NCBI GenBank assembly: GCA_964448295.1
Contig: CAYUVV010000002.1
Span: 19,081-83,080 of the forward strand
From: an uncultured Candidatus Saccharibacteria bacterium
GTDB lineage: Bacteria; Patescibacteriota; Minisyncoccia; Phycocordibacterales; JACOZG01
Direction: 5' to 3'
Length of the DNA stretch: 64,000 bases
Shown here: piece by piece, positions 1 through 20,564 of the stretch
How the letters are laid out: each line of letters begins with the position of its first letter
How positions within the stretch are numbered: position 1 is the stretch's first letter
Made by a program: the position numbers and the translations under genes
The notes under the pieces: generated by a model
What the model saw: only the letters and a program-made list of their open reading frames with translations
The model's database searches: none
Told to the model about the DNA's origin: nothing

Positions 1-1973
1 TGCCGGTATTCCTCGGCTTCGGCTTCCAAGCGCGCTCGTTTGCCGCGAATATAACGGCCATACAAAGAACCCAAAGCTCCGCCCGCCGCGCCGCCGACCG
101 CCCCCCCAATCACCGTACCAACTCCGGGTACGATACTGCCAAGAGCTCCGCCGGCAATGAGGCCGGCTTGGGCGCTGGTTAGCCCGATTTGTGTGGGGCC
201 TTCGCCGCGATACATCCTAGCGGCAAAATCTGTGGCGACGGCGGGGCCGAGCTTGGTCTCGATATTTTTAATAACCTTGCCGGTTTCTTTTTGTTTTGCC
301 TCTTCGCTGGCCTCAAACCCGCCTTTTTGCGCCTTGCCGCCGCCGAGGCCTTCGGCTACACCCGCAAATTTCATCACCCTCTTGGCGGTTTTAGAGGCAC
401 GGAAATCAAAACTGGATTTGCCCAACTGCTCGCTGCCGCGTCGGGCCAGGCGTCCGACCCAGCCGGTAACGCCGCGCGCGTTTTCCCATTTGGCGGCCAG
501 TTTAGAGTTGGCAAATTTATGTCCCATCCGTCCAACCGTTTGCCGACCCATAAAACCAAACGACCCGGCCAGCGTTCGACCGAACGACCCGGCCAGCGTT
601 CGACCGACGGTTTTCATCGCCCAGTCGGTGCCGCCGGCGCCCATCTTTTTAGCGATAACAAGCGAGGCGACAAGAAAGATCGTCATTATGACGATTCGGA
701 AAACTGAGATGGTAAAAGCGTCTGCGCCGGTCGCGGGAGGGTTAGTTTTGAGCGCGTCGGTGATGGCGCTGCCCAAAGTGAGCGAGACGTGAATCATCAA
801 AAAAACCGTCGGGGCAAAGAAGGCATCAGAAAGTAGCATCTGCGTCCACTCTTTGCCCCATTTTTCCGTCTTGGGGTTGGTGTACGCGACGAAAGCAAGG
901 GGTGAAACCACGAGTAGAATGAGCAGGCGCACGGCCCTGATGATAAGCAAAAGGCTGATCGTCCCCAACACAAAAATAGAGATGAGAGAAAACAAAATTG
1001 CTAGGGCAGAATTAAACAAAGAAGCGACATCAACTCCGAGGGACATTATGCCGGTGTCGTTAACTGCCGGGGGCAAGCTCATCAGCTGCACCAGTTTCTC
1101 GGCGAAACCTCGGCCCGACAGATTAAAAATCCCGAGCGCAAGGACGTTGGCGGCGTCGATTACCAGCCCCACCAGAACGGCGCTGAAGTTGATGAGCAGA
1201 GCAACGATAATGACGTAAGAGATCGTTTGTTTGGCATCCAGTTTGAGATTAAAAACGAGCCCGGCCGCGGCGTAGAGGAGCATAAAAATAAGACCAAGAT
1301 TGGCAAAATTGCGGATTGTTGCCCAAGCGACATGCACTCCCCCGCTGAGATCGGCCCAAGCGCGGAATTGCTCGATAGACTGATTGATGGCGAATACCAT
1401 CACCGTTTCCCCAATCCAGCCGTTCACGTACGCCACACCTTCGGCTACTATGGTGGCGGTTTTGGCGAGGTAACAGGTGGGGCTCAAACCGCAGTCTCTG
1501 TCTCCGGCAGTGTTTTGGACTCTTATTCTTTCATTAGAAATTCGGTATAGAGATTCCACTATCCCATTTAGGTGTAGCAAGGTCTGTTCTCCCAACGCGC
1601 GCCCCACGTTATACCGCCAATTATTTGATTGATGATTCAACAATTCATCTTGGTCGCGCCGGGCTCTATCAAGTAAAATTCCTAATCGTGAATCATTGAT
1701 TGCTATATCATTTGAACTTAACGGAGATGGAAGTTGTAGCCATAAACGAGCTCTGTTTTCCAATGAATCCACTCCAAAAAATTCGCTTCCGGTCAGCTGG
1801 TCAATCGTTCTTTCCCAGTTAGAAAAGCCGTTGGGCACATTTTCTACCTCCACATCAATGGCTGTGTTTTGAGCAGATCCCTGTTTTGGTTTTGAGAACC
1901 ACAATGCACCAGCCACAGTTCCCAACAGAAGCAGGGCGATGAAGAATTTAGTGGTGGCGGTTTGTTTAGTCAT
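1..1973 (-). CDS. Polytopic membrane protein with a C-terminal glycine-zipper (GxxxG-rich) tail; possibly TrbL/VirB6-like. 3' end truncated by the window edge
   Basis: Reverse-strand frame is open from the ATG at 1973 to position 1 (my manual translation MTKQTATTKFFIALLLLGTVAGALWF..., with several hydrophobic TM stretches and a tail ...GLIAGGALGSIVPGVGTVIGGAVGGAAGGALGSLYG). Its ATG overlaps the upstream TAA (TAATG). It is absent from the ORF track because no stop lies inside the window. The plus-strand ORFs listed here are antisense low-complexity artefacts. Confidence 0.6.
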   Translation of the reverse strand, partial: MTKQTATTKFFIALLLLGTVAGALWFSKPKQGSAQNTAIDVEVENVPNGFSNWERTIDQLTGSEFFGVDSLENRARLWLQLPSPLSSNDIAINDSRLGILLDRARRDQDELLNHQSNNWRYNVGRALGEQTLLHLNGIVESLYRISNERIRVQNTAGDRDCGLSPTCYLAKTATIVAEGVAYVNGWIGETVMVFAINQSIEQFRAWADLSGGVHVAWATIRNFANLGLIFMLLYAAAGLVFNLKLDAKQTISYVIIVALLINFSAVLVGLVIDAANVLALGIFNLSGRGFAEKLVQLMSLPPAVNDTGIMSLGVDVASLFNSALAILFSLISIFVLGTISLLLIIRAVRLLILLVVSPLAFVAYTNPKTEKWGKEWTQMLLSDAFFAPTVFLMIHVSLTLGSAITDALKTNPPATGADAFTISVFRIVIMTIFLVASLVIAKKMGAGGTDWAMKTVGRTLAGSFGRTLAGSFGFMGRQTVGRMGHKFANSKLAAKWENARGVTGWVGRLARRGSEQLGKSSFDFRASKTAKRVMKFAGVAEGLGGGKAQKGGFEASEEAKQKETGKVIKNIETKLGPAVATDFAARMYRGEGPTQIGLTSAQAGLIAGGALGSIVPGVGTVIGGAVGGAAGGALGSLYGRYIRGKRARLEAEAEEYR

Positions 1974-4900
1974 TAAAATGGCGGCTCGTCTTCTGGAGGA
2001 ACACCCAAAGGAACGTTTTGGATTTGTTGGCCGACCTGCCGGCTCTCGTCGGGGCAGACGGGACCAGTGCAGATTTGGTTGTTTTTGTTGAGCGGGCTTT
2101 GGCGCGCGGTTTGCGGTTGGAGAGTCAGATCGTCCCACTGAGCTAGGGCGTTCGCCACCGCGCGGGCGATTGCGGCCTCGTTCACCTCGCTCACGTTTTT
2201 CAACTGATCAAACACGGCGGTAACGAAAGAGGCCAGTTGTTCGGCCCGAACGGCGCCGGGCGTCACTAAGCGGTATTCGCGGCAAGCTACCTGCCGACCA
2301 CCCTCCTCAATCCATTCGTCGCAGGCGATATTGGGCAAAAGGCCGTTGCCGTGAGCGAGCAGTTGGCGATAGTCGTCTTCCACTCGCGCCTCGCGTTCAA
2401 CCTTGAGTTGGTAGGTGGTGAGGGCTTGGCGGTAGAAGGGGTTAGCGTTAATCCGGTTGCGGATCTCTTTATACTCCGCCCACGTTAGTTTATGCGGCTC
2501 TTCGTAAAACCGGCGCATGTCTTCTGGGGATACCCCGATGTTATAGATGTTAAGATCCGGGTCTTGGTTTGATCCTTCCAGCGCGGTAATTAAGAGCGAG
2601 CCGTAGGGTGCGTCGAGTGATAGATTCTCGCGCAGTTCAGTTGTCAATTTTTTTAGTTCCTCTTTCTTTTTTTCCTCGAAAATTTTGCTTGGGATACCAA
2701 ATGCTTCTTGTCGGTTATCTTCGCTTTGGCTCTCGCTATCGTCCGCTATCCCAAGGTCGCTCACCAGCCGACCTCTCAAGATGACGTTTTCAACAAAGGC
2801 GTTTTGGGCGGAAAACAGGGTTTGAGCCGCCGCTTGGCGCGCCGCCGCGTCGTAGTAAAATTCTTTTTCCTCGATTGCTTCCTGAATGCGCCGAATGACG
2901 CGCAAATGAGTGCAGATCTCAACCTGTAAACCGAGCATTTTTTCCGTCATTTCGCGGATAGCGGCGCTCTCGCCTGCAATCTGGCCAGTGTTTTTGGCAA
3001 TCTGGCCAGTGTTGCTTTCGATGCCGCCGCTGATCGAGAGGAGCAGGCCGACCTCGTTCACCGCAAGACCCGGGGCGGCAGGTTTAATGGCGCCGGCGGC
3101 CGTCAGCGCAGCATCGATCGCCTTTTTGGCCGCTTGCTCCAAGATTGGTCCGACGTATGGCACGCCGCCTACCACCGAGGTGATTCCACTCGTAACCACT
3201 GAAGCAAAACCGCCGCTTAAACCGGTGAGAAAACCGTTACCCAAATCGCCCAATGTGGCCGAACCAGCCGGCGCTTGAGCGGCAACGGCGTTGTTGACGG
3301 CCGCCGCTGTTCCCTCTTCCGTCGCCGTGGCGCCGTTCGCCGCTAGGGCCTCCATTTCCGGCCCGACGAGTTGTGGTTCGTCTTCCACGATGGTTTGGTA
3401 ATCAGAGAGATGCATCTCTCCCGGACGGAGAGCAACACCGTCTGGCACGAGAGCGAAGCCGGCCGTGGCGGCGATATTGAAATCGCTTTCTCGAACGTAG
3501 TTGGGCGGGAACGGCCCAACAGTGGTGTCAAAAAAGTCGTCTGGAACCACCACAACCTCTGGCCGGGTCCAGATGGCATCGTGAAGAGCAAAGCCGGCGG
3601 TATTGATACTGCCGGAGAGGCGATCGCCGATACTGATTGCGCTAGCGCTGATGTTGCGGGCAATACCCCAAGTAGATGGGTCGTCTGGATTAATCTGATC
3701 GGCCGGCGGGTAGAGAAATTGTCCCAGTGTGTCGTCAATTGTTTTGGCAACGGTGTCGCCGATACTGTCGAGCAGTTGGTCGGCGCTGTCGGTAATCGAG
3801 TTGATGAAAAGATTGAGCTGATTGTCTACCGCTGATGACACCAGATCCACAATGATGTCATCGAAGGTGTCTATTGCCGTTTCCAAAGCGGCGATCGGCT
3901 CGAAAACGGCGTCAATTACTTTATCAATGTTCTCCTCGATCGAGGCGTTGATCGGATCGGTGAGGGCGTTGCCGATGGCATCGGCCAAGCGGTTGATGTT
4001 TTTCGGGTCAGTTAAGACTTGGGTCATCTGGAGCGCCATTCCCTCAATGATGTCGTCCACCAGTTTGTCGGCGTCGAGCTGCTCCAGCCACTTTAAGAAT
4101 TTGCCGAGTGCGTCAATCTGGGCGACAAGATTGTTGAACAGACCGGTGATCCGCTCAATCGTGTCTGGTACCGAGGCCAGACCCTCGATCAGACCCAAGA
4201 TTGGCCCGAGAAACCCGAGACCGGATGGCCCGGCAAAAATACTTTTCAGATTTTTTATTGCCGCCTCGATGCCGATTTTGGTGCCGGTGAGGGTGTCCGT
4301 CAGGCTTTGTACATGCCCCTGGATGGCGTCGGGAATGGTTTTAGCAATCATTTCTACCAACATCGGGCGATAGTAAGTTTCCAACGTCGGGCGGGCAATC
4401 TGATTGAATTCAAACGTCAGACTATCTTTGAGTGAGTCGCGGAATGCGCCATCAAGCGCCGATGAAATTTCGTTACCGATGAAATCCTCGTTCAGCTCGG
4501 AGGGAAAGCTCTCGCGGAGCGAGGCGCGCACGAGATCAGTAAAGCGTCCGCGATCGCGGCTCGCTTCCGCCAAGGTCAGGTTTTCGCTCGCCAGTCGGCG
4601 CTGGAAATTGCTGGAGAAATTTTGTTCCACTCGTTCAAACATCGTCTCCAGCTTAGGTCGCATATTGGTCCGCAACCTTTCCGACACGCCGTGTTCGAGG
4701 GTTTGGCCGGTCGCCGTGTCAAGTGCTCGCGGGACCGCCTGGAGCTGGATCGCTTCGTCAATTCGGGTTTTAAGGGGCGTGATAATGGGTTCGGTAATCA
4801 GTTGGCCGAGAGTCGGCGGCCGGCCTCGAGCTTCCGCCTGGCAGACGAGATAATCATTTTGCCGGCGTTGACTTAAGACCTGCCGCGCTTTGGCGGTTTG

Positions 4901-5116
4901 GCCGCCGTCGCCTGTGCCTCGCCGCGCCTCAATTAAAGTCCGGGTGTATTCGGGGATATTAAGCGGGTTGTCGGCCTCTCCGCCCAAGCGACGGCTGGTT
5001 GGCGATGGCGGAATGGGTGGCAGAGCGGCGACCACAGTTTGCGGAACGATCATTACCAAGAGACCGAGGCTGGCGACAAGCTGTTTCCCAATAAGTTTGT
5101 TGTTTTTAAAACTCAT
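1973..5116 (-). CDS. Large secreted protein (1047 aa) with signal peptide and long alpha-helical Asp/Ile-rich repeat region; function unknown
   Basis: ORF track. N-terminal MSFKNNKLIGKQLVASLGLLVMIVPQTVVAA looks like a signal peptide. Repetitive D-x-I/L helical segments. Coupled 4-nt (ATGA) to the upstream gene and 1-nt (TAATG) to the downstream gene. Confidence 0.65.
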   Translation of the reverse strand: MSFKNNKLIGKQLVASLGLLVMIVPQTVVAALPPIPPSPTSRRLGGEADNPLNIPEYTRTLIEARRGTGDGGQTAKARQVLSQRRQNDYLVCQAEARGRPPTLGQLITEPIITPLKTRIDEAIQLQAVPRALDTATGQTLEHGVSERLRTNMRPKLETMFERVEQNFSSNFQRRLASENLTLAEASRDRGRFTDLVRASLRESFPSELNEDFIGNEISSALDGAFRDSLKDSLTFEFNQIARPTLETYYRPMLVEMIAKTIPDAIQGHVQSLTDTLTGTKIGIEAAIKNLKSIFAGPSGLGFLGPILGLIEGLASVPDTIERITGLFNNLVAQIDALGKFLKWLEQLDADKLVDDIIEGMALQMTQVLTDPKNINRLADAIGNALTDPINASIEENIDKVIDAVFEPIAALETAIDTFDDIIVDLVSSAVDNQLNLFINSITDSADQLLDSIGDTVAKTIDDTLGQFLYPPADQINPDDPSTWGIARNISASAISIGDRLSGSINTAGFALHDAIWTRPEVVVVPDDFFDTTVGPFPPNYVRESDFNIAATAGFALVPDGVALRPGEMHLSDYQTIVEDEPQLVGPEMEALAANGATATEEGTAAAVNNAVAAQAPAGSATLGDLGNGFLTGLSGGFASVVTSGITSVVGGVPYVGPILEQAAKKAIDAALTAAGAIKPAAPGLAVNEVGLLLSISGGIESNTGQIAKNTGQIAGESAAIREMTEKMLGLQVEICTHLRVIRRIQEAIEEKEFYYDAAARQAAAQTLFSAQNAFVENVILRGRLVSDLGIADDSESQSEDNRQEAFGIPSKIFEEKKKEELKKLTTELRENLSLDAPYGSLLITALEGSNQDPDLNIYNIGVSPEDMRRFYEEPHKLTWAEYKEIRNRINANPFYRQALTTYQLKVEREARVEDDYRQLLAHGNGLLPNIACDEWIEEGGRQVACREYRLVTPGAVRAEQLASFVTAVFDQLKNVSEVNEAAIARAVANALAQWDDLTLQPQTARQSPLNKNNQICTGPVCPDESRQVGQQIQNVPLGVPPEDEPPF

Positions 5117-6042
5117 AGGCCAAGATTGATTTCTGCCCCCTCGTCTGGATTAAAAATAAGACCGTTGGCGCGAAGATAGAGATTTACATTGTTAACGGCA
5201 GCGAAAAAGTTTTCAAAACGTCCAGCCTGCATTTGGCCAGCGGCCAAGGCGACGGCCGGCTCCGTTTCTATTTCTGCCATCAAGGCGGCGCCCGCGGCGA
5301 GTTGCGACAAACTGTTTACTAAATGGAGTTGGAGTGGCGCCGCCGTACGTGGGGTGGCAACGGCGAGCAGTTGCGCCACAGTTTGGCGATAGAGCGCGGC
5401 GGCGATTTCCAGTTTGGTCAGCGCGAGTTCGTCCCCCTCCACCGCGCGGGAGAGCAGAGCGAGCTCGTTTTCTCCAGAAGAGCCATAGACCCGCAGAGAT
5501 GCGGCGATTGCCTCACCATAACGCCGGAGAGATTCTTCATTTTCGCTGTCAGTTAGAAGCAAATCGCTTTCGGTATATTGTTTGGCGGCTTGCCAATTCA
5601 CACCTTCGAGCGGGAGTAATGGCTGGTTCTTTTTGGCAATGGCGTTGCCGACAAGAACGATGGCTTGACCATCGTTGCTAAGGGCTTGGTTACCGTTTGC
5701 CGCTAGGGGGTCACTCCCCCGCTCAATCTCCGGTCCATCTTGTTCGCCGTCGCCGTCGCTATCCGGATTAAGCGGGTCGGTGCCCCATAGATCGGTTTCT
5801 TCCCAGTCGGCCAAGCCGTCGCCGTCGCCGTCGCGCTGTTTTTGCCGGCGAATCACGGTCGGAGTATCGGCTGGCCCACCACGCGCGATTAAGCTATTAT
5901 TGTTTGCACGCTCGGCACTTTCTCTCAACGCCTGATCGCCCAGCCACCACAAGTACGAGCCGCCGGCAACGACGAGCGTAATCAGCAACCAAACCAGCCG
6001 CTTCATCTTCTCAATTATAGTATAGTCAGCGCCGCGTCTCAC
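5113..6042 (-). CDS. Membrane-anchored protein with thrombospondin-type-3-like Ca-binding repeats (DGDGDG...DPLNPDSDGDGEQDG) followed by a helical domain
   Basis: ORF track. N-terminal TM segment (LVWLLITLVVAGGSYLWW) and Asp-rich DxDxDG motifs. First gene of a 3-gene minus-strand operon. Confidence 0.6.
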   Translation of the reverse strand: MRRGADYTIIEKMKRLVWLLITLVVAGGSYLWWLGDQALRESAERANNNSLIARGGPADTPTVIRRQKQRDGDGDGLADWEETDLWGTDPLNPDSDGDGEQDGPEIERGSDPLAANGNQALSNDGQAIVLVGNAIAKKNQPLLPLEGVNWQAAKQYTESDLLLTDSENEESLRRYGEAIAASLRVYGSSGENELALLSRAVEGDELALTKLEIAAALYRQTVAQLLAVATPRTAAPLQLHLVNSLSQLAAGAALMAEIETEPAVALAAGQMQAGRFENFFAAVNNVNLYLRANGLIFNPDEGAEINLGL

Positions 6043-6045
6043 GCT

Positions 6046-6543
6046 CTAATCTGTGGATGATGATATTTGCCAGTTTACTCGTTCGCCAATTTGCAATTTG
6101 TCGGTGAGGGGGTGTGCGGCATTAATTTCGAGCACCCACTTGACAGGCGCGGGGGGAGAAAATGTTTGAGGATAGGTTTGGGGTTTTACGTCGTTTTCCC
6201 AACCAACAACTGTTTGATCCGGCCCGATCCAAATGATATCGAGAGGGAACTTCATCTCTTTCATCCAAAAAGCCGGTTTTTCCGCTCGGTCGAAAATAAA
6301 TAGCATTCCGGTTTCTGCTGGCAGAAACGCCCGGCCCGATAAACCCTGCCGCCGCTCGTTGGGACTGTCGGCGATTTCTACCTTAATCTTCTCGTGGCCA
6401 ACCGTCAGCCAGCCGGTTTCGCGCCCGGCTTGATTCGGCCAGAGAGCGAACAGGGCGGTTAGTGTGGCAAAGATGATTCGTTCAGACAAAACCATTGCTC
6501 TAATGTTAGCGTTTCCGCTCGCGCTTGGGGAGAGAGGCCACAA
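6046..6543 (-). CDS. DUF192 (COG1430) family protein; true start probably the internal Met at about 6495
   Basis: Motifs IADSPNERRQGLSGR ... GMLFIF ... FWMKEMKFPLDIIWIG match DUF192. Overlaps the ksgA 3' end. Confidence 0.7.
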   Translation of the reverse strand: MWPLSPSASGNANIRAMVLSERIIFATLTALFALWPNQAGRETGWLTVGHEKIKVEIADSPNERRQGLSGRAFLPAETGMLFIFDRAEKPAFWMKEMKFPLDIIWIGPDQTVVGWENDVKPQTYPQTFSPPAPVKWVLEINAAHPLTDKLQIGERVNWQISSSTD

Positions 6544-7235
6544 GCGGCAAATCGGCCCGCCAATTCAGGCAGTTTGCCTCCGAGCATTTTCCGCGGATTG
6601 GCAAAGCCACGATGGAGAATGTCAAAAAACCGGTTTTCTGCCGTCGCTGTTGGGAAACGTGCTCGGGCAATGTTATCAATTGCCAGCACCGCTGAATCTA
6701 CTTTTGGCGGTGGCGAAAACTGGCCGCGTTTGACGATTTTTACCAATCGCGGATGGCCATAGGCCTTGATCGAGATCGAGAGCAAGCTTTCCCGTTCGCG
6801 TCCGATAACGCGCTGGGCGACTTCTTTTTGAACCAAGACGACGATAGTTTGAGGCGGATTCTTGCTCGGCAGAACTAAGCGGAAAAATTCGCCGGTGAGA
6901 TAATACGGGAGATTGGCGATTATTTTATAACGTTTACCGAGGATTGATTGATGTTCCGCCGCGCGCCACCAATCACGGAAATCTTGTGTCACAACGGTTA
7001 GCGGCGCAGGAGAACCAATAGCCGCGGCTAGCGCGGCGGCCAAGCGCTCGTCTTTTTCCACCGCGATCACTTGTTTGGCCTTATCAGTGAGAAGGCGGGT
7101 GAGGATGCCGTGTCCCGGGCCTATCTCGAGGACGATATCGTCGGCGTTGAGTTGGGCGGCTTCAACCATCAGCCGGGGAATAGCGTCACGGGTGAGAAAG
7201 TGTTGGCCGAGAGGTGGCGGGCGATGGCGAGTCAT
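6459..7235 (-). CDS. rsmA: 16S rRNA (adenine1518/1519-N6)-dimethyltransferase RsmA/KsgA
   Basis: GQHFL, EIGPGHGILT and NLPY motifs. Confidence 0.9.
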   Translation of the reverse strand: MTRHRPPPLGQHFLTRDAIPRLMVEAAQLNADDIVLEIGPGHGILTRLLTDKAKQVIAVEKDERLAAALAAAIGSPAPLTVVTQDFRDWWRAAEHQSILGKRYKIIANLPYYLTGEFFRLVLPSKNPPQTIVVLVQKEVAQRVIGRERESLLSISIKAYGHPRLVKIVKRGQFSPPPKVDSAVLAIDNIARARFPTATAENRFFDILHRGFANPRKMLGGKLPELAGRFAACGLSPQARAETLTLEQWFCLNESSLPH

Positions 7236-7236
7236 T

Positions 7237-9084
7237 TTAATCGACGGCCAGGTGATTCAAAAATTCCGACGGCCAAGAGGATTGACGACCACCGGCGATC
7301 GCGCGACTCTCGGCGTAAGCCAACGTGAGCGTCTGCCGTGCGCGGGTGACGGCAACGTAGAAGAGCCGTCGTTCCTCGGCGGCGGCCTCGGCCGGGCCGC
7401 GTTCATCGTTATCGCGTGGTCGGCTGGGAAACAAATCTTGTTCCAAACCGGTGATGAACACATTGTCGAATTCGAGACCCTTGGCCGCGTGAATCGTCAT
7501 TAGGCGGACGGGGTTAACTGCGCGCTCGCCCTCCCCTTCTTCGAGGCTGTCTTGGTCCGACACGAGAGCGGCTTCATCGAGCAAGCGCCATAGACCGTCT
7601 GGGGTGGGGTCGGCGTCATAGCGGCCAGCGAGAGCGATTAATTCTTCAAGGTTGCGCCGGCGGTCCAACCCGTTTTCGTCTGGTTCGTCATAAAATTTCA
7701 TCAAACCGGAACGCTCGAGGGTTAGTTTGATTACCGCCGAAGGCGGCTGGTTTGCGGCAGCGGCGATGTCTTCGAGCCGGTTGCGCAGTTCTTGCCAGCG
7801 GCGGCGAGCGGCGGGGCCGAGAGCGCCACCGTCTCCGGCGGCGATTTTGGCAAGCGAGCTTTTGCCGAGTCCGCATGGAGGTCGCGTCGCCGCCCGGGCC
7901 AAACTAAACCAGTCTCCGGGGTTTAACGCCAATTTGAGGTAGGCCAAAGCGTCGCGAATCTCCTGACGGTCGAAAAAGCGCGTGCCGAGCACCTGATAGG
8001 ACAGACCGTGGCGCAGGCAGGCCTCTTCGAGCGCTCGCGATTGGAAATTGGCGCGGTATAAGATGGCCGACGAGGCCGCGGGATTTGTAGCGCGTTGGCT
8101 CAAAATTTCGGCCACCACCAGGTCGGCTTCTTCTGTTTCGTCGGTAGCGATCAATAATTTCACCGGTGCGCCGCCGGTTTGGCGGGTATAAAGATTTTTC
8201 GGTGGACGGTTCGGGTTAGCCGCGATCGCTCGATTAGCCAGATCAAGAATGGGTTTGGTGGAACGATAATTTTCTTCCAAAATAATAATAGTGGTGCCCG
8301 GAAATTCTCGTTCAAAAAGCAGCAGGTTGCGGTAATCGGCGCCACGCCAACTATAGATTGATTGATCGACGTCGCCGACGACACACACGTTGCGCCTCTC
8401 CCCTGCCAAGAGTTTCGTCAATTCATATTGTGGGCCGTTAGTGTCTTGATATTCATCCACGTGCAGATATTGCCACCGGTTTTGGTATTCGGCCAAAATT
8501 GTTGATTCGCGTCGAAACAACAGCAAGGTTTTTAAGATTAGATCGTCAAAGTCGAGTGCTTGGCGTTCGCGGAGGATTTCCTCGTATCTTTGCCAAATTG
8601 GCGACAATCTCTTATTCTCCCACGATTGCGGGTTGCTTTGTCCGCGGTTTTTTTCCCGCGAGATGAGCCGTTGGATTTTTCCTTTAGGGAAAAGCTTACG
8701 ATCAAAACCGAGATTTTGCAGGGCTTGGCCAACCAGTGCCTCCGATTCGTCCCGATCGAGGATTGTAAAATGACGTTTCAGACCGATCAAACCGCCGTGG
8801 AGACGCAAGATTTTTGCTCCGAGCGCGTGGAATGTCGCTATCGTTGGCCCGCCGCCCTCACCGCTCTGGCGACCAAGAGCCTTAACGCGATTGGCGAGTT
8901 CCCGCGCTGCTTTGTTGGTGAAAGTAACGGCGAGGATGCGCTCGGCCGGAACGCCACCGGCGATCAGATTGGCGATCCGGTGGACGATTACCCGCGTTTT
9001 GCCAGCGCCAGCGCCAGCGACCACGAGGAGGGGGCCGTCGCGGTGCTCACTTGCGCTCCTTTGTGCGGGATTGAGGGCTGTCAT
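7237..9084 (-). CDS. uvrD: UvrD/PcrA-family ATP-dependent DNA helicase
   Basis: Walker A AGAGAGKT. UvrD/Rep motifs (TFTNKAA, DEYQDTN, YRS). Confidence 0.85.
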   Translation of the reverse strand: MTALNPAQRSASEHRDGPLLVVAGAGAGKTRVIVHRIANLIAGGVPAERILAVTFTNKAARELANRVKALGRQSGEGGGPTIATFHALGAKILRLHGGLIGLKRHFTILDRDESEALVGQALQNLGFDRKLFPKGKIQRLISREKNRGQSNPQSWENKRLSPIWQRYEEILRERQALDFDDLILKTLLLFRRESTILAEYQNRWQYLHVDEYQDTNGPQYELTKLLAGERRNVCVVGDVDQSIYSWRGADYRNLLLFEREFPGTTIIILEENYRSTKPILDLANRAIAANPNRPPKNLYTRQTGGAPVKLLIATDETEEADLVVAEILSQRATNPAASSAILYRANFQSRALEEACLRHGLSYQVLGTRFFDRQEIRDALAYLKLALNPGDWFSLARAATRPPCGLGKSSLAKIAAGDGGALGPAARRRWQELRNRLEDIAAAANQPPSAVIKLTLERSGLMKFYDEPDENGLDRRRNLEELIALAGRYDADPTPDGLWRLLDEAALVSDQDSLEEGEGERAVNPVRLMTIHAAKGLEFDNVFITGLEQDLFPSRPRDNDERGPAEAAAEERRLFYVAVTRARQTLTLAYAESRAIAGGRQSSWPSEFLNHLAVD

Positions 9085-9256
9085 ATTGGCTTGTTATAGC
9101 AAATTGGCGGCCTATTGGCTTATCCCCAGCGTCCGATTGTCGGCTTTGACCGAGTCCTCTTTTTCGGCTAGGATGATCCCTATCCCCTGTTTTTGTTCCT
9201 AATTTAGGCTTATTTTACCTAACTTACAATTAATTTCTGGCCTGTTTGCCCTGTCC

Positions 9257-10186
9257 GTGCTGGCGGCGACCATTCGTCCTCATTTTGCCCTGTCTGCTCC
9301 GGCGGCGGTTGGTCGGGTTGGCAATTCTCAAACCATCTCTTTGCCCGATGGGTTGCCCTCCTATTACCTTCTGGCGCGGGGCGGAGGTGAAACACTGATT
9401 ATTGATGACAGCGTTCTCGCGGCCGAGGTGACGGCGCCGAACCGTCCCCTCTCGACCAGTGGCACGAGTGGTCAGGTTAGTTTGTATGTTGTGCGCCCGG
9501 GCGACTCCCTCTCGCAAATTGCTGAAATGTTTTCCGTGTCGGCAAACACCATCATTTGGGCCAACGACCTAGACCGCGCCGGAGAACTGATTGCGCCCGG
9601 GCAGGTGCTCGTTATTTTACCGATCTCGGGCGTTCAACATACGGTGGTCAAGGGCGATACGCTAGCCGGTATCGCCAAAAAATACGAAGGCGATTTGGAC
9701 GATCTGGTTAAGTGGAACGGGCTGGACCCCGATGCCCCGCTTGCTTTAGGCGCGGTGGTGACGATTCCCGACGGTGTGATGGCCACACCGGCGCCGAGCG
9801 CGGGGAGTAAGGGGGTGCCGGCAGGTAGCGGCCCTGAGTACGCCGGTTATTACCTCCGTCCGATTGATGGCGGTGTGCGGACGCAAGGGATTCACGGTTA
9901 CAATGGAGTAGATTTGGCCACGGCCGCCGGTTCGCCGATCTACGCCGCCGCCGCCGGCACGGTCATCGTCAGCAAAACTGGCGGTTGGAACGGCGGCTAC
10001 GGCAATTACATCGTGATCCGTCACAACAACGGCACACAAACACTCTACGCTCACAACCAGAAAAATCTTGTAACGACCGGCGAGCGGGTGGCGCAAGGTG
10101 ATGTGATCGGGTACATCGGTTCGACCGGCAAATCCACCGGTCCCCACGTCCATTTCGAAATCCGTGGGGCCAAGAATCCGTTTTAG
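9257..10186 (+). CDS. Peptidoglycan hydrolase: two LysM domains followed by an M23 (LytM) peptidase domain
   Basis: LysM segments (YVVRPGDSLSQIAEMF..., HTVVKGDTLAGIAKKY...). M23 catalytic motifs HxxxD and HxH (GPHVHFEIR). The real start is likely upstream (hydrophobic leader in frame). Confidence 0.85.
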   Translation: MLAATIRPHFALSAPAAVGRVGNSQTISLPDGLPSYYLLARGGGETLIIDDSVLAAEVTAPNRPLSTSGTSGQVSLYVVRPGDSLSQIAEMFSVSANTIIWANDLDRAGELIAPGQVLVILPISGVQHTVVKGDTLAGIAKKYEGDLDDLVKWNGLDPDAPLALGAVVTIPDGVMATPAPSAGSKGVPAGSGPEYAGYYLRPIDGGVRTQGIHGYNGVDLATAAGSPIYAAAAGTVIVSKTGGWNGGYGNYIVIRHNNGTQTLYAHNQKNLVTTGERVAQGDVIGYIGSTGKSTGPHVHFEIRGAKNPF

Positions 10187-10274: not shown

Positions 10275-11105
10275 TTACCACACTCGCCAGCCGAAGAACT
10301 TAACCGTTTCTACTTGTGGTATCAAGTGGCGGGCGAGCTTGAACTCGAGGGCTCCGCAAAACAGAGCGATGAGTCCGCCGCCGGGCGCCATTACCGGGTT
10401 TCTGGTAAGCAGATAACCAGCTGTGGCGCCGACTCCGGCCGATAAAGCGTAAAGCCAACGCGCATCGGAATGAATGGCCTTAATGGTAAGCCACACGACT
10501 CGTTTCAACATCACGCCGAGCCAACAACCGACGGCGATGATGATAAGCCCTAGGGCAACGGCCATGATCAGCATTACCCACGGCATCCAAAACAAGCAAA
10601 CGGGGATGAGCGCCACCATTACGATTTGGGCTTTCAGCCAGTTATCACGACCAAAAACATCATATTGTCTGTCTAGTTCCATACCTATGATCAAATTATA
10701 CACACAAAAAACAACTAAAATCGCCGCGGTGCCAACTGGTTCGTTGCTTATTACAAACCAGTGATCTGTTGGCACCCACCAACACAGAATACTGCCAAGT
10801 AACAGGGTTGGTATTGCTCCAAAAGCAAAAACGGCCAGGGCGATAACCAACCATGCAAGAACATCCTGCGATACCGCCGCGATACTTTGCGTAACGGCAC
10901 TACGCTGAAACGTCTGTTGTCCGGCTCGTTTAACAGCCCTCACTACTGCTTGTTTGTCGTAAACGAGATAAGCGCCGGTCATCGCCACGGCTGTTCCCAC
11001 CCAGCAGAACCAGGTGGAAAGTAGGTACTGACCGATGGCGGTACCCGCCGTTCCCCAAGTGAATAACCACAACCAAAAACCCAACTCCTTCGTTTTGTTG
11101 TTCAC
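10275..11105 (-). CDS. Integral membrane protein, unknown function
   Basis: ORF track. Multiple hydrophobic segments. Confidence 0.45.
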   Translation of the reverse strand: MNNKTKELGFWLWLFTWGTAGTAIGQYLLSTWFCWVGTAVAMTGAYLVYDKQAVVRAVKRAGQQTFQRSAVTQSIAAVSQDVLAWLVIALAVFAFGAIPTLLLGSILCWWVPTDHWFVISNEPVGTAAILVVFCVYNLIIGMELDRQYDVFGRDNWLKAQIVMVALIPVCLFWMPWVMLIMAVALGLIIIAVGCWLGVMLKRVVWLTIKAIHSDARWLYALSAGVGATAGYLLTRNPVMAPGGGLIALFCGALEFKLARHLIPQVETVKFFGWRVW

Positions 11106-11185: not shown

Positions 11186-12748
11186 CTACTGCATCACCCG
11201 TGGGCGATATTGTATGGCCTCGAGGAGATGGGGCGCGGCAATTTGCTCGGCGCCTTCGAGGTCGGCGATGGTTCGCGCCAGTTTGATTACCCGATGATAG
11301 GCGCGGGCCGAGAGATCCAGTTTGCGCGCTGATTGATTTAGGAGTTCCGTGCTCGGCCCATCGAGCGCCGCGAAGCGGCGCAACTCCTTCAAGCCCATCT
11401 CGCTATTAGTGTTGATGGTGAGACCGGCTTGGCGGAAGCGCTGTTTTTGCCGAGCTCGAGCGGTTGCGATTTTGGCTCGGACGGCGGCCGAGCTCTCCCC
11501 TGTCGGTAGGCCGGAGAGTTTGCTCGGGTCAATTTGCGGCACGTCGAGCCAGAGATCGAGCCGGTCAATGATCGGGCCGGAGAGTTTGCGTCGGTAACGC
11601 GCGAGAGCCGCGGGCGAACAAAGGCATTCCCGACCCCGGGTGCCGAAGTGGCCACAGGGGCAGGGATTCATCGTGGCGATGAGGATGAAACTTGCCGGAA
11701 AGCGGGCCGCGCCCCGGGCGCGGCTGATGTGGATGACGCGATCTTCAAGCGGTTGGCGCAGGGCCTCGATCACCCGCTTGTCGAACTCTGGGAATTCGTC
11801 CAAAAAAAGGACGCCGCGATGCGCGAGCGTAATTTCTCCCGGGCGTGGATTAGCTCCGCCGCCAACGAGTGAAACGTAGGAGGCGGTGTGGTGTGGCGCG
11901 CGGAAGGGCGGGGCGGTGACGAGACTGTCTGTTAACGTGCCCGCCGCTGAATGAATGCCGGTTACCTCCAAGACCTCTTCGGCATCAAGGGCGGGCAGGA
12001 TGCCGGTAAGCGCTTTGGCAAGCAGGGTTTTGCCGGTGCCGGGTGGACCCTGCATCGCGAGATTATGCCCGCCGGCGGCGGCGACGAGCAGGCCGCGTTT
12101 GGCTGTTTCCTGCCCGCGTATTTCGGCTAAATCCACTCCGGCCGGATGCGGTTGGAATATAATCTTGGTCGGCGCTTGGACGTTTAGTTTGCTTGCCGTC
12201 CTTACCTCTTCTCTACCGGTGTTGGTGTCAGTCGGCGGCGAGAGATGCCCCGCTAATTCTTTCAAATTGTTTATCGGGAAAATTTCCAGCCCGGTTGTTA
12301 ACGCGGCCTCGGCCGCATTTTCCGACGGCAAATACAGCTCTCTACACCCTATTTTTTTTAAGGTTTGAGCAATCAGTAGCGCGCCTTTTATTGGCCGCAA
12401 GCGTCCGTCTAGCGCCAGTTCTCCCAAAAAAGTCTTGTCTGGCGTGGCAAACTGAACGAGGCCGGTGGCGAGCAAATAGCTCATCGCAATCGCCAAATCA
12501 AAAATCGCCCCCTCTTTGCGTAAATCCGCCGGTGCGAGGGAGACGATTATTTTTTTGTTGCCTTTTTTGGGAGAGGGAAAACCTGAATTTTTTATAGCGG
12601 CGGTAATCCGGTCGCGTGCCTCCTCCACCGACTTGTCGGGTAAGCCAACGATAGTGAAAGATTGTAGGCCGCGGGAAATATCTACCTCCACCTCGACGGG
12701 CTCGACCGCGAGGCCAACAACTTGCGCGGCTTTAACGCGGGCGAGCAT
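11186..12748 (-). CDS. comM: YifB/ComM family Mg-chelatase-like AAA+ ATPase
   Basis: N-terminal MLARVKAAQVVGL...VEVDISRGL (Lon-like domain). Walker A GPPGTGKT and a ChlI-type C-terminus. The ORF track begins 36 codons upstream (12856); the internal Met is the more likely start. Confidence 0.85.
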   Translation of the reverse strand: MLARVKAAQVVGLAVEPVEVEVDISRGLQSFTIVGLPDKSVEEARDRITAAIKNSGFPSPKKGNKKIIVSLAPADLRKEGAIFDLAIAMSYLLATGLVQFATPDKTFLGELALDGRLRPIKGALLIAQTLKKIGCRELYLPSENAAEAALTTGLEIFPINNLKELAGHLSPPTDTNTGREEVRTASKLNVQAPTKIIFQPHPAGVDLAEIRGQETAKRGLLVAAAGGHNLAMQGPPGTGKTLLAKALTGILPALDAEEVLEVTGIHSAAGTLTDSLVTAPPFRAPHHTASYVSLVGGGANPRPGEITLAHRGVLFLDEFPEFDKRVIEALRQPLEDRVIHISRARGAARFPASFILIATMNPCPCGHFGTRGRECLCSPAALARYRRKLSGPIIDRLDLWLDVPQIDPSKLSGLPTGESSAAVRAKIATARARQKQRFRQAGLTINTNSEMGLKELRRFAALDGPSTELLNQSARKLDLSARAYHRVIKLARTIADLEGAEQIAAPHLLEAIQYRPRVMQ

Positions 12749-13127
12749 TGTCCTCGCCCGCGTCGTTTTCCATATGCCGACGGCAGGTGCGAGCGGCCGG
12801 ATTGGCCTCGAGGCGTTCGCGGCTGATTTCCTCACCACCAATTTCACAAACGCCATAAGTTCCGTTAGTTATGCGCGCTAGGGCTTCGTTTACCTCGCGC
12901 AGGCGGGTTTCGAGCGGAGTGGTCAAACCCTCGCGAGCGTCTTGTTCTTCCAGACGATCGGCGACTTCGTCGCGAAAATCATCCCCGCCTTCTTTGGGTG
13001 GGATGGCTTGCCAGTTATCCGGATTGTGCGGATCTTGCTGGGCAATGCTGGAAAGTTGTTTTAACAATTCCGCTCGTTCTTGTTCCAGTCGAACCCGCAA
13101 TGATTCGATATTTAACGAGTTGTTCAT
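12732..13127 (-). CDS. DksA/TraR-family protein (degenerate zinc finger, partial Cys loss)
   Basis: Coiled-coil N-terminus and C-terminal GTYGVCEIGGEEISRERLEANPAARTC resembling the DksA C4 finger with two Cys missing. Confidence 0.6.
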   Translation of the reverse strand: MNNSLNIESLRVRLEQERAELLKQLSSIAQQDPHNPDNWQAIPPKEGGDDFRDEVADRLEEQDAREGLTTPLETRLREVNEALARITNGTYGVCEIGGEEISRERLEANPAARTCRRHMENDAGEDNARPR

Positions 13128-16579: not shown

Positions 16580-16612
16580 GTTATTTAGGAAATTATTTTT
16601 AATTGTTAATTT

Positions 16613-16960
16613 TTAAAGTGTTTCCAACACCCGTCCGCGTTCGGCCGGAGTAAGTTTGGTTTCCGTCTCGCCGCTTTCGAGGTTGTCGAGCACGCGCGCC
16701 TGCTCGGCGGGCGTGAGTTCGTCACTCGCGCCGCTTTGCCCTTCCAAGTTTTCCAGAATTCGCGCCTGCTCGGCGGGCGTTAAGTTGGCTCCGTACCCTG
16801 TAACAGGCGTTCCCTCGTTATTTTCATTCCCGCTTGTGGCGAGATAATAGGAAACGACACCAATAATTACTAGGACGCCGGCCAGCGCGAGCGCGATCCA
16901 AGCCGCGCGCGGTGTGCGGACGTCCGTTTTAACATCAGCGACATTATTAATCTCATCCAT
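16613..16960 (-). CDS. Small membrane protein with three LTPAEQAR(I/V)L-x-NLE repeats
   Basis: ORF track. One TM segment (AAWIALALAGVLVIIGVV). Tandem peptide repeats are visible in the translation and in the DNA (16660-16800). Confidence 0.45.
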   Translation of the reverse strand: MDEINNVADVKTDVRTPRAAWIALALAGVLVIIGVVSYYLATSGNENNEGTPVTGYGANLTPAEQARILENLEGQSGASDELTPAEQARVLDNLESGETETKLTPAERGRVLETL

Positions 16961-16987
16961 ACCCGGCCATTATACCGGGTTAACGCT

Positions 16988-17557: not shown

Positions 17558-17565
17558 AAAAAAGA

Positions 17566-17802: not shown

Positions 17803-17864
17803 AAAAGACGGTATTTGCTTATAAAAACGTTAACCTTGCTCATCCTAGCACATCCCGATCAAAT

Positions 17865-20552: not shown

Positions 20553-20564
20553 CAATGAATATAA

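What the first reader, a model, noticed from the sequence alone, without database searches (positions are those of the whole stretch)
1..6042. Three-gene envelope operon: TM plus Ca-binding-repeat protein, 1047-aa secreted helical giant, and polytopic glycine-zipper membrane protein
The three minus-strand genes are tightly coupled (ATGA and TAATG overlaps). They encode a membrane-anchored protein with TSP3-like DxDxDG repeats, a very large signal-peptide-bearing repetitive helical protein, and a multi-TM protein ending in a long Gly-zipper tail (GGALGSIVPGVGTVIGGAVGGAAGGALGSLYG). The last is reminiscent of VirB6/TrbL-type T4SS inner-membrane components. The third gene is invisible to the ORF track because it runs off the window, so the track's plus-strand ORFs at 157-1550 are antisense artefacts. 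This could be a conjugation- or secretion-related complex or a lineage-specific surface structure.
Basis: partly seen in the sequence, partly recalled or inferred. Interest (0 to 1): 0.5.

Follow-up and report, generated by a model that had tools for sequence, protein, structure and literature searches.

The report
Front end of Patescibacteria T4SS cluster
The three genes are the first three of an 11-gene type IV secretion system cluster that ultra-small Patescibacteria (Paceibacteria type) carry next to their replication origin: the third gene is a VirB6-type channel protein, and the first two are conserved, fast-evolving surface proteins with no known relatives.

Summary
Three translationally coupled minus-strand genes occupy 1-6042. 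g1 is 297 aa (more likely start 6006) with one TM helix and TSP3 Ca-binding motifs. g2 is 1047 aa with a signal peptide. g3 is polytopic and runs off the window.

A near-identical public contig (1 mismatch in 10,462 nt) extends the locus. g3 is 838 aa and is followed by g4, PrgI/VirB3, a TraC/TrsD-like protein, a VirB4 ATPase, g8, g9, a VirB2-like pilin and g11, then yidC and rnpA; dnaA follows in related loci.

g3 is an extended VirB6. A profile of its homologues has TrwI as best PDB hit (E 0.0026), 4 of 14 homologues match Pfam TrbL, and the five best Foldseek hits of its AlphaFold model are all R388 TrwI/VirB6.

The order g1-g2-g3 recurs in about 50 of 59 species-level Patescibacteria loci. 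g1 and g2 match nothing in Pfam or the PDB by sequence. The g2 core model (pLDDT 75) has no fold match, VirB5 included.

Verdict: a new member of the published Patescibacteria T4SS, which lacks a relaxase and is probably used in host interaction. It includes two unannotated accessory families. Interest is moderate.

The parts
5113..6006 (-). g1: a 297-aa bitopic envelope protein. It has an N-terminal TM helix (aa 4-22), a TSP3-type Ca-binding motif pair, and a conserved C-terminal domain of about 170 aa. A longer GTG start at 6042 is possible but less likely.
   Evidence: Translation. Pfam TSP3_bac at E 1.6e-6. Hydropathy. The 297-aa call on the public contig is an exact record in the collection. 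The family was found by local jackhmmer, at the same position where gene order was listed, in 55 of 59 loci.
5734..5832 (-). TSP3-like DxDxDG motifs of g1 (DGDGDGLADWEE ... DSDGDGEQDG).
   Evidence: Read from the translation. The Pfam PF18884 hit covers aa 73-93 of the 309-aa frame. The motif is present in only 20 of 68 family members, so it is an accessory feature.
6014..6042 (-). Promoter-like site (GTGAGA, 17 nt, TATAAT; 10 of 12 matches) immediately upstream of the g1 ATG.
   Evidence: Consensus scan; this is the best-scoring site in 1-9400. It is a pattern match only, not evidence of function.
1973..5116 (-). g2: the 1047-aa secreted 'giant'. It has a signal peptide, a lineage-specific N-terminal extension of about 650 aa, the conserved g2 module, and a Pro/Gln-rich tail.
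   Evidence: ORF and translation. An identical gene is called on the public contig. No Pfam or NCBIfam hit. Family membership by local jackhmmer and by the representative search, which found 116 clusters.
5024..5116 (-). g2 signal peptide or N-terminal hydrophobic segment (aa 1-31).
   Evidence: Hydropathy peak at aa 13-31. Nearly all complete family members printed start with a comparable signal-like sequence.
2117..3079 (-). Conserved g2 family module (giant aa ~680-1000). It starts with the GVPVxExGxLL-type motif, followed by a helix of about 79 residues, more helices, and a beta-hairpin holding a conserved Cys pair (C932/C945), then TPG.
   Evidence: jackhmmer domain map. Alignments A4 and A9 and the conservation map. 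AlphaFold2 model with mean pLDDT 75.2. No PDB fold match.
1..1973 (-). g3: an extended VirB6/TrbL-type polytopic membrane protein. The first 657 of its 838 aa are in the window; the gene continues beyond position 1.
   Evidence: Translation. Full length from contig L001. Profile against PDB gives TrwI at E 0.0026. Pfam TrbL hits in 4 of 14 homologues. The top five Foldseek hits are all TrwI/VirB6.
654..1307 (-). g3 six-helix transmembrane core (aa 223-440). This is the region that aligns with TrbL/VirB6.
   Evidence: Hydropathy. The weak direct Pfam TrbL match covers aa 248-433 against profile positions 26-212 of 215. The TrwI alignment. Helices in the AlphaFold model.
1308..1895 (-). g3 N-terminal hydrophilic domain (aa 27-222), lying between the first TM helix and the TM core. 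It is predicted to be helical, and its extracytoplasmic location is inferred.
   Evidence: Hydropathy. AlphaFold secondary structure. The location is an inference from topology.
57..164 (-). g3 glycine-zipper segment (aa 604-639) in the C-terminal hydrophilic region.
   Evidence: Read from the translation. Weak Pfam Gly-zipper_Omp hit at E 0.021. A comparable zipper occurs in 29 of 63 family members, so it is variable.

Best explanation
The three genes are the promoter-proximal end of an 11-gene, chromosomally fixed type IV secretion system (T4SS) cluster typical of Paceibacteria/Parcubacteria-type Patescibacteria.

The cluster order is:
- g1
- g2
- g3 (VirB6)
- g4
- PrgI/VirB3
- a TraC/TrsD-like protein
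- VirB4
- g8
- g9 (weakly Ig-like)
- a VirB2-like pilin
- g11 (TM anchor plus a TolB-like beta-propeller)

The cluster sits between ksgA and yidC-rnpA-dnaA, which places it next to the replication origin.

Shown here:
- g3 is an extended VirB6, the polytopic subunit that in solved T4SSs forms the pentameric base of the translocation stalk.
- g1 is membrane-anchored and g2 has a signal peptide.
- g1 and g2 are translationally coupled to g3.
- g1 and g2 keep their position in about 50 of 59 related species.
- The cytoplasmic and motor parts (VirB4, TraC-like, PrgI) are well conserved, while g1, g2, g3 and the other envelope parts diverge about 5 to 12 times faster at the protein level.

Inferred:
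- g1 and g2 are extracytoplasmic accessory subunits of the machine. They would assemble on or around the VirB6 platform, outside the membrane. g1 would be tethered by its TM helix, with Ca2+ stiffening its linker. g2 would be exported by Sec.
- g2 carries a conserved helical module preceded by a variable spacer, which in this clade is about 650 aa long.
- As proposed for the Saccharibacteria system, the machine serves the epibiotic host interaction (contact, pilus, or transfer of protein or other macromolecules) rather than plasmid conjugation. No relaxase or coupling protein accompanies it.
For: - Contig extension shows the downstream genes: PrgI (Pfam E 7.7e-9), TraC-like, VirB4 (P-loop_TraG at 1.8e-25, AAA_10 at 5e-12) and T4SS_pilin (7.8e-6). 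The window and the contig differ at 1 of 10,462 nt.
- VirB6 assignment: the g3 family profile has TrwI as best PDB hit at E 0.0026 over about 230 residues. Four of 14 homologues hit Pfam TrbL, best 9.7e-7. The top five Foldseek hits of the AlphaFold model are all TrwI/VirB6, probability 1.00, TM up to 0.47.
- Synteny: the same gene order is seen in L002, L003, L005 and L087 and in 80 species-level genomes, nearly all labelled Patescibacteria/CPR and the rest unclassified MAGs. Of 59 loci with at least 9 kb upstream of virB4, g1 is present in 55, g2 in 50, g3 in 58 and ksgA in 51. Downstream, yidC is present in 57 of 58 and dnaA in 54 of 58.
- Coupling: ATGA and TAATG overlaps.
- Topology.
- Rate contrast: VirB4 is 74-93% identical, against about 23-40% for most g1/g2/g3 comparisons (the closest relative, L002, reaches 66% for g2 and 45% for g3). 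Against L002, dN is 0.05 for VirB4, 0.27 for g2 and 0.61 for g3.
- No relaxase or T4CP domain in the cluster or in the large ORFs of the window that were scanned.
- Literature: the Patescibacteria T4SS is MPF_FATA-related, often near dnaA/ksgA/rnpA, and lacks a relaxase (PMC12102498). It is essential for epibiotic growth of Southlakia epibionticum (PMC10633639, PMC12857230). Possible T4SS pili were seen at a parasite-host interface (bioRxiv 10.64898/2026.06.21.733656).
Against: - g3 itself does not reach the Pfam TrbL threshold (E 0.37, 11 bits against 25.9). The Foldseek E-values are only about 0.01 and the TM-scores are modest.
- g1 and g2 have no detectable homology to any T4SS component. 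Their profiles find nothing credible in Pfam or PDB. The g2 module model matches no solved fold.
- The local g1 and g2 profiles find nothing in the one Saccharimonadia cluster examined (RAAC3_TM7). Experimental essentiality data come from a different Saccharibacterium (Southlakia epibionticum) that was not examined here and do not cover these two families.
- Their membership of the machine therefore rests on conserved position and translational coupling alone.
- Function and substrate are not shown for any Paceibacteria-type system.
- About 9 of 59 loci lack a detectable g2.
Confidence: 0.85

Rival explanations
1. The cluster is a conjugative T4SS of an integrated mobile element (ICE or plasmid remnant) that transfers DNA to other cells. 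On this reading g1 and g2 would be surface adhesins for mating-pair formation.
For: - The core genes (PrgI, TraC/TrsD-like, VirB4, VirB6) are those of Gram-positive conjugation systems.
- A T4CP-like gene lies about 8 kb upstream of the cluster in one relative, L003.
- A tyrosine integrase and an IS1595 transposase occur in the window at 17.9-25 kb.
Against: - The cluster occupies the same core-genome slot, between ksgA and yidC-rnpA-dnaA, in more than 50 different species. This is the opposite of what a mobile element would show.
- GC content at 1-14 kb equals that of the bulk of the window. The low-GC island with the integrase lies about 12 kb away and is separated by housekeeping genes.
- No relaxase or T4CP domain was found in the cluster or in the large ORFs of the window that were scanned.
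- The literature reports relaxases in only 103 Patescibacteria genomes, and rarely near virB4 (PMC12102498).
Confidence: 0.05
2. g1 and g2 are not T4SS parts. They are a lineage-specific cell-surface or S-layer-like pair, perhaps an adhesin with its anchor, that merely sits in the same origin-proximal operon as the T4SS.
For: - Neither protein has sequence or fold similarity to a T4SS component.
- The local g1 and g2 profiles find nothing in the Saccharibacteria RAAC3_TM7 T4SS cluster.
- g2 length is highly variable, at 323-1375 aa, and TSP3 motifs are common in surface proteins.
- Housekeeping genes (uvrD, ksgA, DUF192) lie on the same strand directly upstream with tiny gaps, so co-transcription alone does not prove shared function.
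Against: - The order g1-g2-virB6 is retained in about 50 of 59 species despite only about 25% sequence identity.
- The start and stop codons overlap with virB6.
- Where g1 is duplicated, the copies stay in place (12 loci).
- Unrelated surface genes would be expected to drift apart over this evolutionary depth.
Confidence: 0.1
3. The system is a DNA-uptake (ComB-like) T4SS that serves natural competence, with g1 and g2 acting as extracellular DNA- or Ca-binding receptors.
For: - T4SS-based DNA uptake is known from established knowledge (Helicobacter ComB).
- The window also encodes ComEC, RecJ, ComM and a type IV pilus cluster.
Against: - In Southlakia, competence depends on T4P and ComEC, and the T4SS remains essential when comEC is deleted (PMC10633639, as summarised in PMC12857230).
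- The window already contains a complete-looking T4P/ComEC route.
- No DNA-binding domain was detected in g1 or g2.
Confidence: 0.03

Closest known systems
Patescibacteria T4SS (the 'Patescibacteria clade' of VirB4, MPF_FATA-related; Quinonero-Coronel et al. 2025, PMC12102498; Southlakia epibionticum SEML1_0006-0019, Wang et al. 2023, PMC10633639)
   Same: - VirB4, PrgI/VirB3, a TrsD/TraC-like protein, VirB6 and a VirB2-like pilin lie in one chromosomal cluster.
- The cluster is next to dnaA/rnpA/ksgA.
- There is no relaxase or T4CP in the cluster.
   Different: The accessory set differs from the one Saccharimonadia cluster examined here.
- The RAAC3_TM7 cluster has a six-gene pilin array, a second 1099-aa VirB6 paralogue, and Exo_endo_phos+M23 and CHAP hydrolases. 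The local profiles of g1, g2, g4, g9 and g11 find nothing there.
- The Paceibacteria-type cluster has usually one or two pilin-like genes, plus g1, g2, g4, g8, g9 and g11.
- I did not find g1 or g2 discussed in the main text of the papers read.
VirB6/TrbL family (PF04610), e.g. TrwI of plasmid R388 (PDB 7o3v, 8rt9, 8rtd), including 'extended VirB6' proteins
   Same: - A polytopic helical core.
- Best PDB match by both sequence profile and fold.
- The gene lies beside virB3/virB4.
- Large hydrophilic extensions, as in extended VirB6 proteins (700-900 aa in MPF_FA, according to PMC12857230).
   Different: - It is 838 aa, against about 300-340 aa for TrwI.
- It has an extra N-terminal TM helix and a helical domain of about 190 aa.
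- It has a C-terminal region of about 400 aa with a Gly-zipper and a highly charged tail (43 K/R and 41 D/E in 194 aa).
- The protein itself is below the Pfam threshold.
- It has the highest dN of the cluster genes in the L001/L002 comparison.
Gram-positive MPF_FATA conjugation systems (pCF10 PrgH/PrgI/PrgJ; pGO1 TrsC/TrsD/TrsE)
   Same: A monoderm architecture without VirB7/9/10. PrgI-type VirB3, a TrsD-like protein and VirB4 are encoded in that order.
   Different: It has no relaxase, no T4CP, and no PrgB-type adhesin. It does have a VirB2-like pilin gene. It is chromosomal and vertically conserved.
VirB5/TraC/TrwJ (minor pilin and stalk-tip subunit), as a possible analogue of g2
   Same: - Sec-exported and mainly helical.
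- Encoded immediately upstream of virB6, as virB5 is in virB operons (established knowledge).
- It co-occurs with a VirB2-like pilin.
- Many short g2 members begin, after the signal peptide, with a VPVxD/E-type motif.
   Different: - No Pfam VirB5 match.
- It is far larger (323-1375 aa) and contains a Cys-bridged beta-hairpin.

Membership tests
Patescibacteria-type T4SS (MPF_FATA-related) | A VirB4 ATPase is encoded in the same cluster. | tested here: met
   A 606-aa protein lies 4.3 kb downstream of the g3 start on contig L001. It hits P-loop_TraG at 1.8e-25, AAA_10 at 5e-12 and DUF87 at 4e-6. It lies outside the window.
Patescibacteria-type T4SS (MPF_FATA-related) | A VirB3 homologue (PrgI) and a TrsD/TraC-like protein lie next to virB4. 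| tested here: met
   Pfam PrgI at E 7.7e-9. PF26593 TraC-like is precomputed for the neighbouring gene, and TraC_F_IV hits at 9.7e-4. Both are present in 59 of 59 loci.
Patescibacteria-type T4SS (MPF_FATA-related) | A VirB2-like pilin gene is in the cluster. | tested here: inconclusive
   The 119-aa protein scores 26.3 bits (E 7.8e-6) on PF18895 T4SS_pilin, just under the 26.6-bit cutoff. The family is present in 54 of 58 loci.
Patescibacteria-type T4SS (MPF_FATA-related) | The VirB4 falls in the monophyletic Patescibacteria clade. | tested here: inconclusive
   No tree was built. The 80 best of 588 genomic relatives (72-85% identity) come from genomes nearly all labelled Patescibacteria/CPR, the rest being unclassified MAGs.
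Patescibacteria-type T4SS (MPF_FATA-related) | A chromosomal location near dnaA/rnpA/ksgA, with no relaxase or T4CP in the cluster. | tested here: met
   ksgA is upstream in 51 of 59 loci. Downstream, yidC is present in 57 of 58 and dnaA in 54 of 58. No relaxase or T4CP domain was found among the cluster proteins.
Patescibacteria-type T4SS (MPF_FATA-related) | It is required for epibiotic growth, or translocates a substrate. | not testable with these tools
   Known only for Southlakia epibionticum (PMC10633639).
VirB6/TrbL (PF04610) | The protein itself matches the Pfam model above its gathering score. | tested here: not met
   E 0.37, 11 bits against 25.9. The match does span profile positions 26-212 of 215.
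VirB6/TrbL (PF04610) | Homology to recognised VirB6 at the family-profile level. | tested here: met
   Four of 14 homologues hit TrbL, best 9.7e-7. The family profile has TrwI as best PDB hit at E 0.0026.
VirB6/TrbL (PF04610) | A polytopic helical core (at least 5 TM helices) whose fold resembles solved VirB6. | tested here: met
   Six TM helices at aa 223-440, plus one N-terminal TM helix. AlphaFold model with pLDDT 69.6. Foldseek PDB ranks 1-5 are all TrwI/VirB6 chains, with E 0.013-0.021, probability 1.00 and TM 0.34-0.47. The E-values are weak.
VirB6/TrbL (PF04610) | Pentameric assembly at the stalk base. | not testable with these tools
   No multimer prediction or experiment was available.
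VirB5/TraC/TrbJ (considered for g2) | Sequence match to VirB5-type families. | tested here: not met
   No Pfam hit for the giant or for 51 family cores. A PDB profile search found nothing relevant.
VirB5/TraC/TrbJ (considered for g2) | A three-helix-bundle-plus-appendage fold like TraC (1R8I) or TrwJ. | tested here: not met
VirB5/TraC/TrbJ (considered for g2) | A secreted protein encoded directly upstream of virB6. | tested here: met
   A signal peptide is present in nearly all complete members printed. The position is conserved in 50 of 59 loci.
Bacterial TSP3 repeat (PF18884; g1) | DxDxDG-type repeat above the Pfam threshold. | tested here: met
   28.3 bits against 25, E 1.6e-6. Ca2+ binding itself is not testable here. 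Only 20 of 68 g1 family members carry the motif.
VirB8-like (PrgL/TraM; considered for g1) | A bitopic protein with an NTF2-like extracytoplasmic domain. | tested here: inconclusive
   The bitopic topology is met. The g1 C-domain profile finds no VirB8, PrgL or TraM chain in the PDB. No structure model could be made because no admissible alignment was available.

The most novel reading that the evidence does not exclude
g2 is the extracellular stalk or tip subunit of the Paceibacteria T4SS, a non-homologous functional counterpart of VirB5.

On this reading its conserved helical module docks, through the GVPVxExGxLL segment, onto the extended VirB6 platform or the VirB2-like pilus. Its variable extension (absent to about 1000 aa; about 650 aa here) sets the reach or the host specificity of the machine. 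g1 would act as its Ca2+-stiffened membrane tether.

This would define a new, lineage-specific extracellular architecture for a monoderm T4SS.
Probability: 0.25. Interest if true: 0.6.

Novelty: new member of a known kind. Interest (0 to 1): 0.35.

Why it matters
The Patescibacteria T4SS is the first T4SS reported to be essential for its bearer's growth, and its substrate and extracellular architecture are unknown.

For the largest Patescibacteria class, this locus shows two things:
- VirB6 is nearly always present (58 of 59 loci), although single-protein HMMs miss it.
- Two further envelope proteins, g1 and g2, are fixed parts of the operon yet belong to no described family, and the g2 core has no known fold.

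These are concrete candidates for the host-contact end of the machine. They could be targeted once Paceibacteria co-cultures become genetically tractable.

On its own, however, the finding adds a member to a system that is already published.

Tried and rejected
1. My third and last homologous-protein search used a concatenated g1+g2 alignment, to harvest both families at once. The TSP3 motif of g1 swamped the word filter. All listed hits, apart from the giant itself (P0015), were unrelated multi-TSP3 surface proteins. No usable homologues were gained, and g1 therefore never received an admissible alignment for structure prediction.

2. A related-loci run with the divergent VirB6 alignment failed for lack of a conserved stretch. 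It was replaced with a VirB4 alignment.

5. dN/dS between the two closest strains is unusable because dS is saturated or undefined. Only dN values are quoted.

6. Searching for internal repeats in the giant by self-BLAST found none.

8. Profile searches of the context families gave only weak leads: g9 resembles Ig-like Hoc at E 1.3e-3, g11 resembles the TolB propeller at E 1e-4, and g4 matches nothing.

Full report
**1. What is in the sequence**

The minus strand of 1-6042 carries three stop-free frames:
- g1 at 5113-6042
- g2 at 1973-5116 (1047 aa)
- g3 at 1-1973 (657 codons that run off the window)

The junctions read CTATGAGT (ATGA overlap) and TTTTAATGACT (TAATG overlap).

For g1, the gene called on an identical public contig starts at ATG 6006, giving 297 aa (MKRLVW...). 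That exact protein is on record. A promoter-like GTGAGA-17-TATAAT pair lies at 6042-6014. This is a pattern match only.

g1 features:
- One N-terminal TM helix.
- A Pfam TSP3_bac match at E 1.6e-6.

g2 features:
- A signal-like N-terminus.
- No Pfam or NCBIfam match.
- Self-BLAST shows no internal repeats, so 'repetitive' is not supported.

g3 features:
- One N-terminal TM helix.
- A helical hydrophilic domain of about 190 aa.
- Six TM helices at aa 223-440.
- A Gly-zipper at aa 604-639.

The plus-strand ORFs inside these genes have no Pfam match.

**2. Extending the locus**

An exact look-up of the giant returned a 29.5-kb Logan contig, L001. It overlaps the window over 10,462 nt with one mismatch, at window position 380.

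On that contig g3 is 838 aa. Its tail of 194 aa is extremely charged, with 43 K/R and 41 D/E.

Downstream, on the same strand, lie the following genes:
- a 258-aa protein (g4)
- PrgI/VirB3 (E 7.7e-9)
- a TraC/TrsD-like protein
- a 606-aa VirB4 ATPase (P-loop_TraG at 1.8e-25)
- a two-TM 90-aa protein (g8)
- a 254-aa protein (g9)
- a T4SS_pilin-like 119-aa protein (26.3 bits against a cutoff of 26.6)
- a 416-aa protein (g11)

After these come yidC and rnpA on the other strand. Upstream in the window, on the same strand, lie uvrD, ksgA and a DUF192 gene. A divergent LysM/M23 peptidase and comM follow.

**3. g3 is VirB6**

Directly, g3 reaches only E 0.37 on Pfam TrbL, although the match spans almost the whole model.

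Other evidence supports the assignment:
- Its 13 detectable homologues include four that hit TrbL, best 9.7e-7. One of these is from Saccharibacteria RAAC3_TM7.
- A profile of the 14 sequences has TrwI, the VirB6 of R388, as its best hit among all PDB sequences, at E 0.0026 over about 230 residues.
- An AlphaFold2 model of aa 1-481 (pLDDT 69.6) has TrwI/VirB6 chains as its five best Foldseek PDB hits: 7o3v_F/G/J, 8rt9_F and 8rtd_L. These have E 0.013-0.021, probability 1.00 and TM up to 0.47.

Together with its position next to virB3/virB4, this makes g3 an 'extended VirB6'. That class is reviewed in PMC12857230.

**4. The cluster is a conserved, origin-proximal feature of Paceibacteria-type Patescibacteria**

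Neighbourhoods of four g3 homologues show the same order, ending in yidC-rnpA-dnaA.

A scan of one genome per species with a VirB4 alignment found 588 relatives. The best 80 are 72-85% identical. Nearly all come from genomes labelled Patescibacteria/CPR, among them Paceibacterota, Parcubacteria and Kaiser-, Taylor-, Nomura-, Campbell-, Zambryskii-, Adler- and Vogelbacteria; a few carry only generic MAG labels.

Local jackhmmer over all ORFs of these loci recovers the order g1-g2-g3-g4-PrgI-TraC-like-VirB4-g8-g9-pilin-g11 almost everywhere.

Among 59 loci with at least 9 kb upstream of virB4:
- g1 is present in 55
- g2 in 50
- g3 in 58
- ksgA in 51

Downstream, yidC is present in 57 of 58 loci and dnaA in 54 of 58.

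This matches the published description of the Patescibacteria T4SS:
- It is MPF_FATA-related, lies near dnaA/rnpA/ksgA, usually lacks a relaxase, and carries VirB2-like pilins (PMC12102498).
- It is essential for epibiotic growth in Southlakia (PMC10633639).
- Possible T4SS pili have been seen at a parasite-host interface (bioRxiv 10.64898/2026.06.21.733656).

I found no relaxase or coupling-protein domain in the cluster or in the large window ORFs that I scanned.

**5. g1 and g2 are unannotated accessory families**

g2 family:
- Members range from 323 to 838 aa in most loci. In the window's clade they are 1020-1288 aa.
- Nearly all complete members printed start with a signal peptide.
- What they share is one module, corresponding to giant aa ~680-1000.
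- The module opens with a GVPVxExGxLL-type motif. It also contains a conserved Cys in a long helix, an NNPxG motif, GxGF, and a Cys pair before TPG.
- An exhaustive HMMER search of 1.84 billion representatives found 116 clusters at E <= 1e-3, with lengths of 135-1375 aa.
- With 76 of these as the alignment, AlphaFold2 gives a model with mean pLDDT 75.2, much of the core scoring above 85. It has a 79-residue helix, further helices and a beta-hairpin holding the conserved Cys pair. The GVPV segment has low confidence, as would be expected of a partner-binding element, though this is inference.

g1 family:
- It shares a C-terminal domain of about 170 aa with a VP...HL.L.N...DP signature.
- TSP3 motifs occur in only 20 of 68 members.
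- g1 is tandemly duplicated in 12 loci.

Profile searches of both families against PDB sequences and Pfam give nothing credible.

In the Saccharibacteria RAAC3_TM7 cluster, local profiles of g1, g2, g4, g9 and g11 find nothing. That cluster instead has a second 1099-aa VirB6 paralogue, six pilin genes, and M23/CHAP hydrolases. The Paceibacteria-type machine therefore has its own envelope complement.

**6. Evolutionary rates**

Relative to L001, percentage identities are:
- VirB4: 74-93%
- TraC-like: 50-75%
- PrgI: 43-78%
- g1, g2, g3, g4, g8, g9, g10, g11: mostly 23-40% beyond the closest relative, L002 (which reaches 66% for g2 and 45% for g3)

Against the closest relative, dN values are as follows; dS is saturated, so no dN/dS claim is made:
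- VirB4: 0.05
- g2: 0.27
- g3: 0.61

A conserved motor with fast-changing exposed parts fits a host-contact apparatus, but this is inference.

**7. Mechanism**

The following is shown:
- A VirB3/VirB4/VirB6 translocon is encoded here with a pilin-like gene.
- The exported proteins g1 and g2 are translationally coupled to it.

The following is inferred:
- g1 is TM-tethered, with a Ca-binding linker in this strain.
- g2 is Sec-exported, with a conserved module on a variable spacer.
- Both act outside the membrane on or near the VirB6 platform.
- The Ig-like g9 (weak, E 1.3e-3) and the TM-anchored TolB-like propeller g11 (E 1e-4) act there as well.
- The conserved divergent LysM/M23 peptidase may supply the VirB1-type wall-opening function. 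PMC12102498 notes M23/LysM-containing VirB1 candidates, mostly in Paceibacteria.
- The substrate is unknown. Following the literature, I favour a host-interaction role (contact, pilus, or macromolecule transfer) over conjugation.

**8. Verdict**

The system is a new member of a published kind. What is new is modest:
- VirB6 is near-universal in these loci.
- Two conserved, unannotated accessory families are identified, one with an apparently undescribed fold and a clade-specific giant form.

Interest is 0.35.

Noticed in passing
window 16000-26900: GC content drops to 45-49%, against about 55% elsewhere. The stretch holds an NYN-domain gene, a tyrosine integrase (17865-18785), a CCA-adding enzyme, tRNA-Arg and tRNA-Gly, a 622-aa N6 DNA methylase (21837-23705), an IS1595 transposase (24169-25047), and three tRNA-Pro plus one tRNA-Gly. 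It looks like a small integrated island or an RM+IS insertion at a tRNA cluster.
   Followed up: no
window 34594-51033: A type IV pilus and competence region lies on the plus strand: PilB-type ATPase (38294-40048), PilC (40052-41266), then a run of small ORFs (41267-42739). There are three large ORFs without a Pfam hit (34594-36441, 36420-38297, 42729-44504), RecJ (46816-48519) and ComEC (49483-51033). Both of the envelope machines reported as essential in Saccharibacteria (T4P and T4SS) therefore lie within about 45 kb of the origin here.
   Followed up: partly
window 9257-10186 (+) and 11186-12856 (-): A LysM-LysM-M23 peptidase is transcribed divergently from uvrD, and comM (Mg-chelatase-like) lies beyond it. 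The same neighbours recur in L005. The peptidase is a candidate VirB1-type wall hydrolase for the T4SS. By phmmer it was found in only 3 of 59 loci at E <= 1e-5, possibly because it lies beyond the fetched flank.
   Followed up: partly
window 380 (g3 codon 532): This is the only difference between the window and the public Logan contig over 10,462 nt. It changes Arg (window, KRVMKF) to Gly (contig, KGVMKF) in the hydrophilic C-region of VirB6.
   Followed up: yes
L087 6505-6870; L005 721-1092: A bAvd/23S_rRNA_IVP-family gene, the accessory protein of diversity-generating retroelements, is inserted between g4 and prgI in one relative. In another it lies next to comM. No DGR reverse transcriptase or repeats were looked for.
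   Followed up: no
L039, L043, L046, L047, L054, L055, L057, L058, L065, L068, L069, L081 (upstream of g2/g3): g1 is tandemly duplicated in 12 loci. In the same group the pilin-like gene and g11 have swapped order.
   Followed up: no
L001 11012-11788 (g4) and family alignment A13: The soluble g4 family is poorly conserved overall (13% mean column identity). It ends in a nearly invariant DPYREP motif. No PDB or Pfam match was found.
   Followed up: partly
L086 (Saccharibacteria RAAC3_TM7, CP006915) 5621-8920: In the Saccharimonadia-type cluster, a 1099-aa second VirB6 paralogue (TrbL_3; E 3.9e-35 to the g3 profile) lies upstream of the main VirB6, separated from it by a 295-aa gene. Six pilin genes precede it.
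   Followed up: partly
window 13148-14398 (-), 15023-16579 (-), 10275-11105 (-): ORFs of 416, 518 and 276 aa have no Pfam match at the thresholds used.
   Followed up: no
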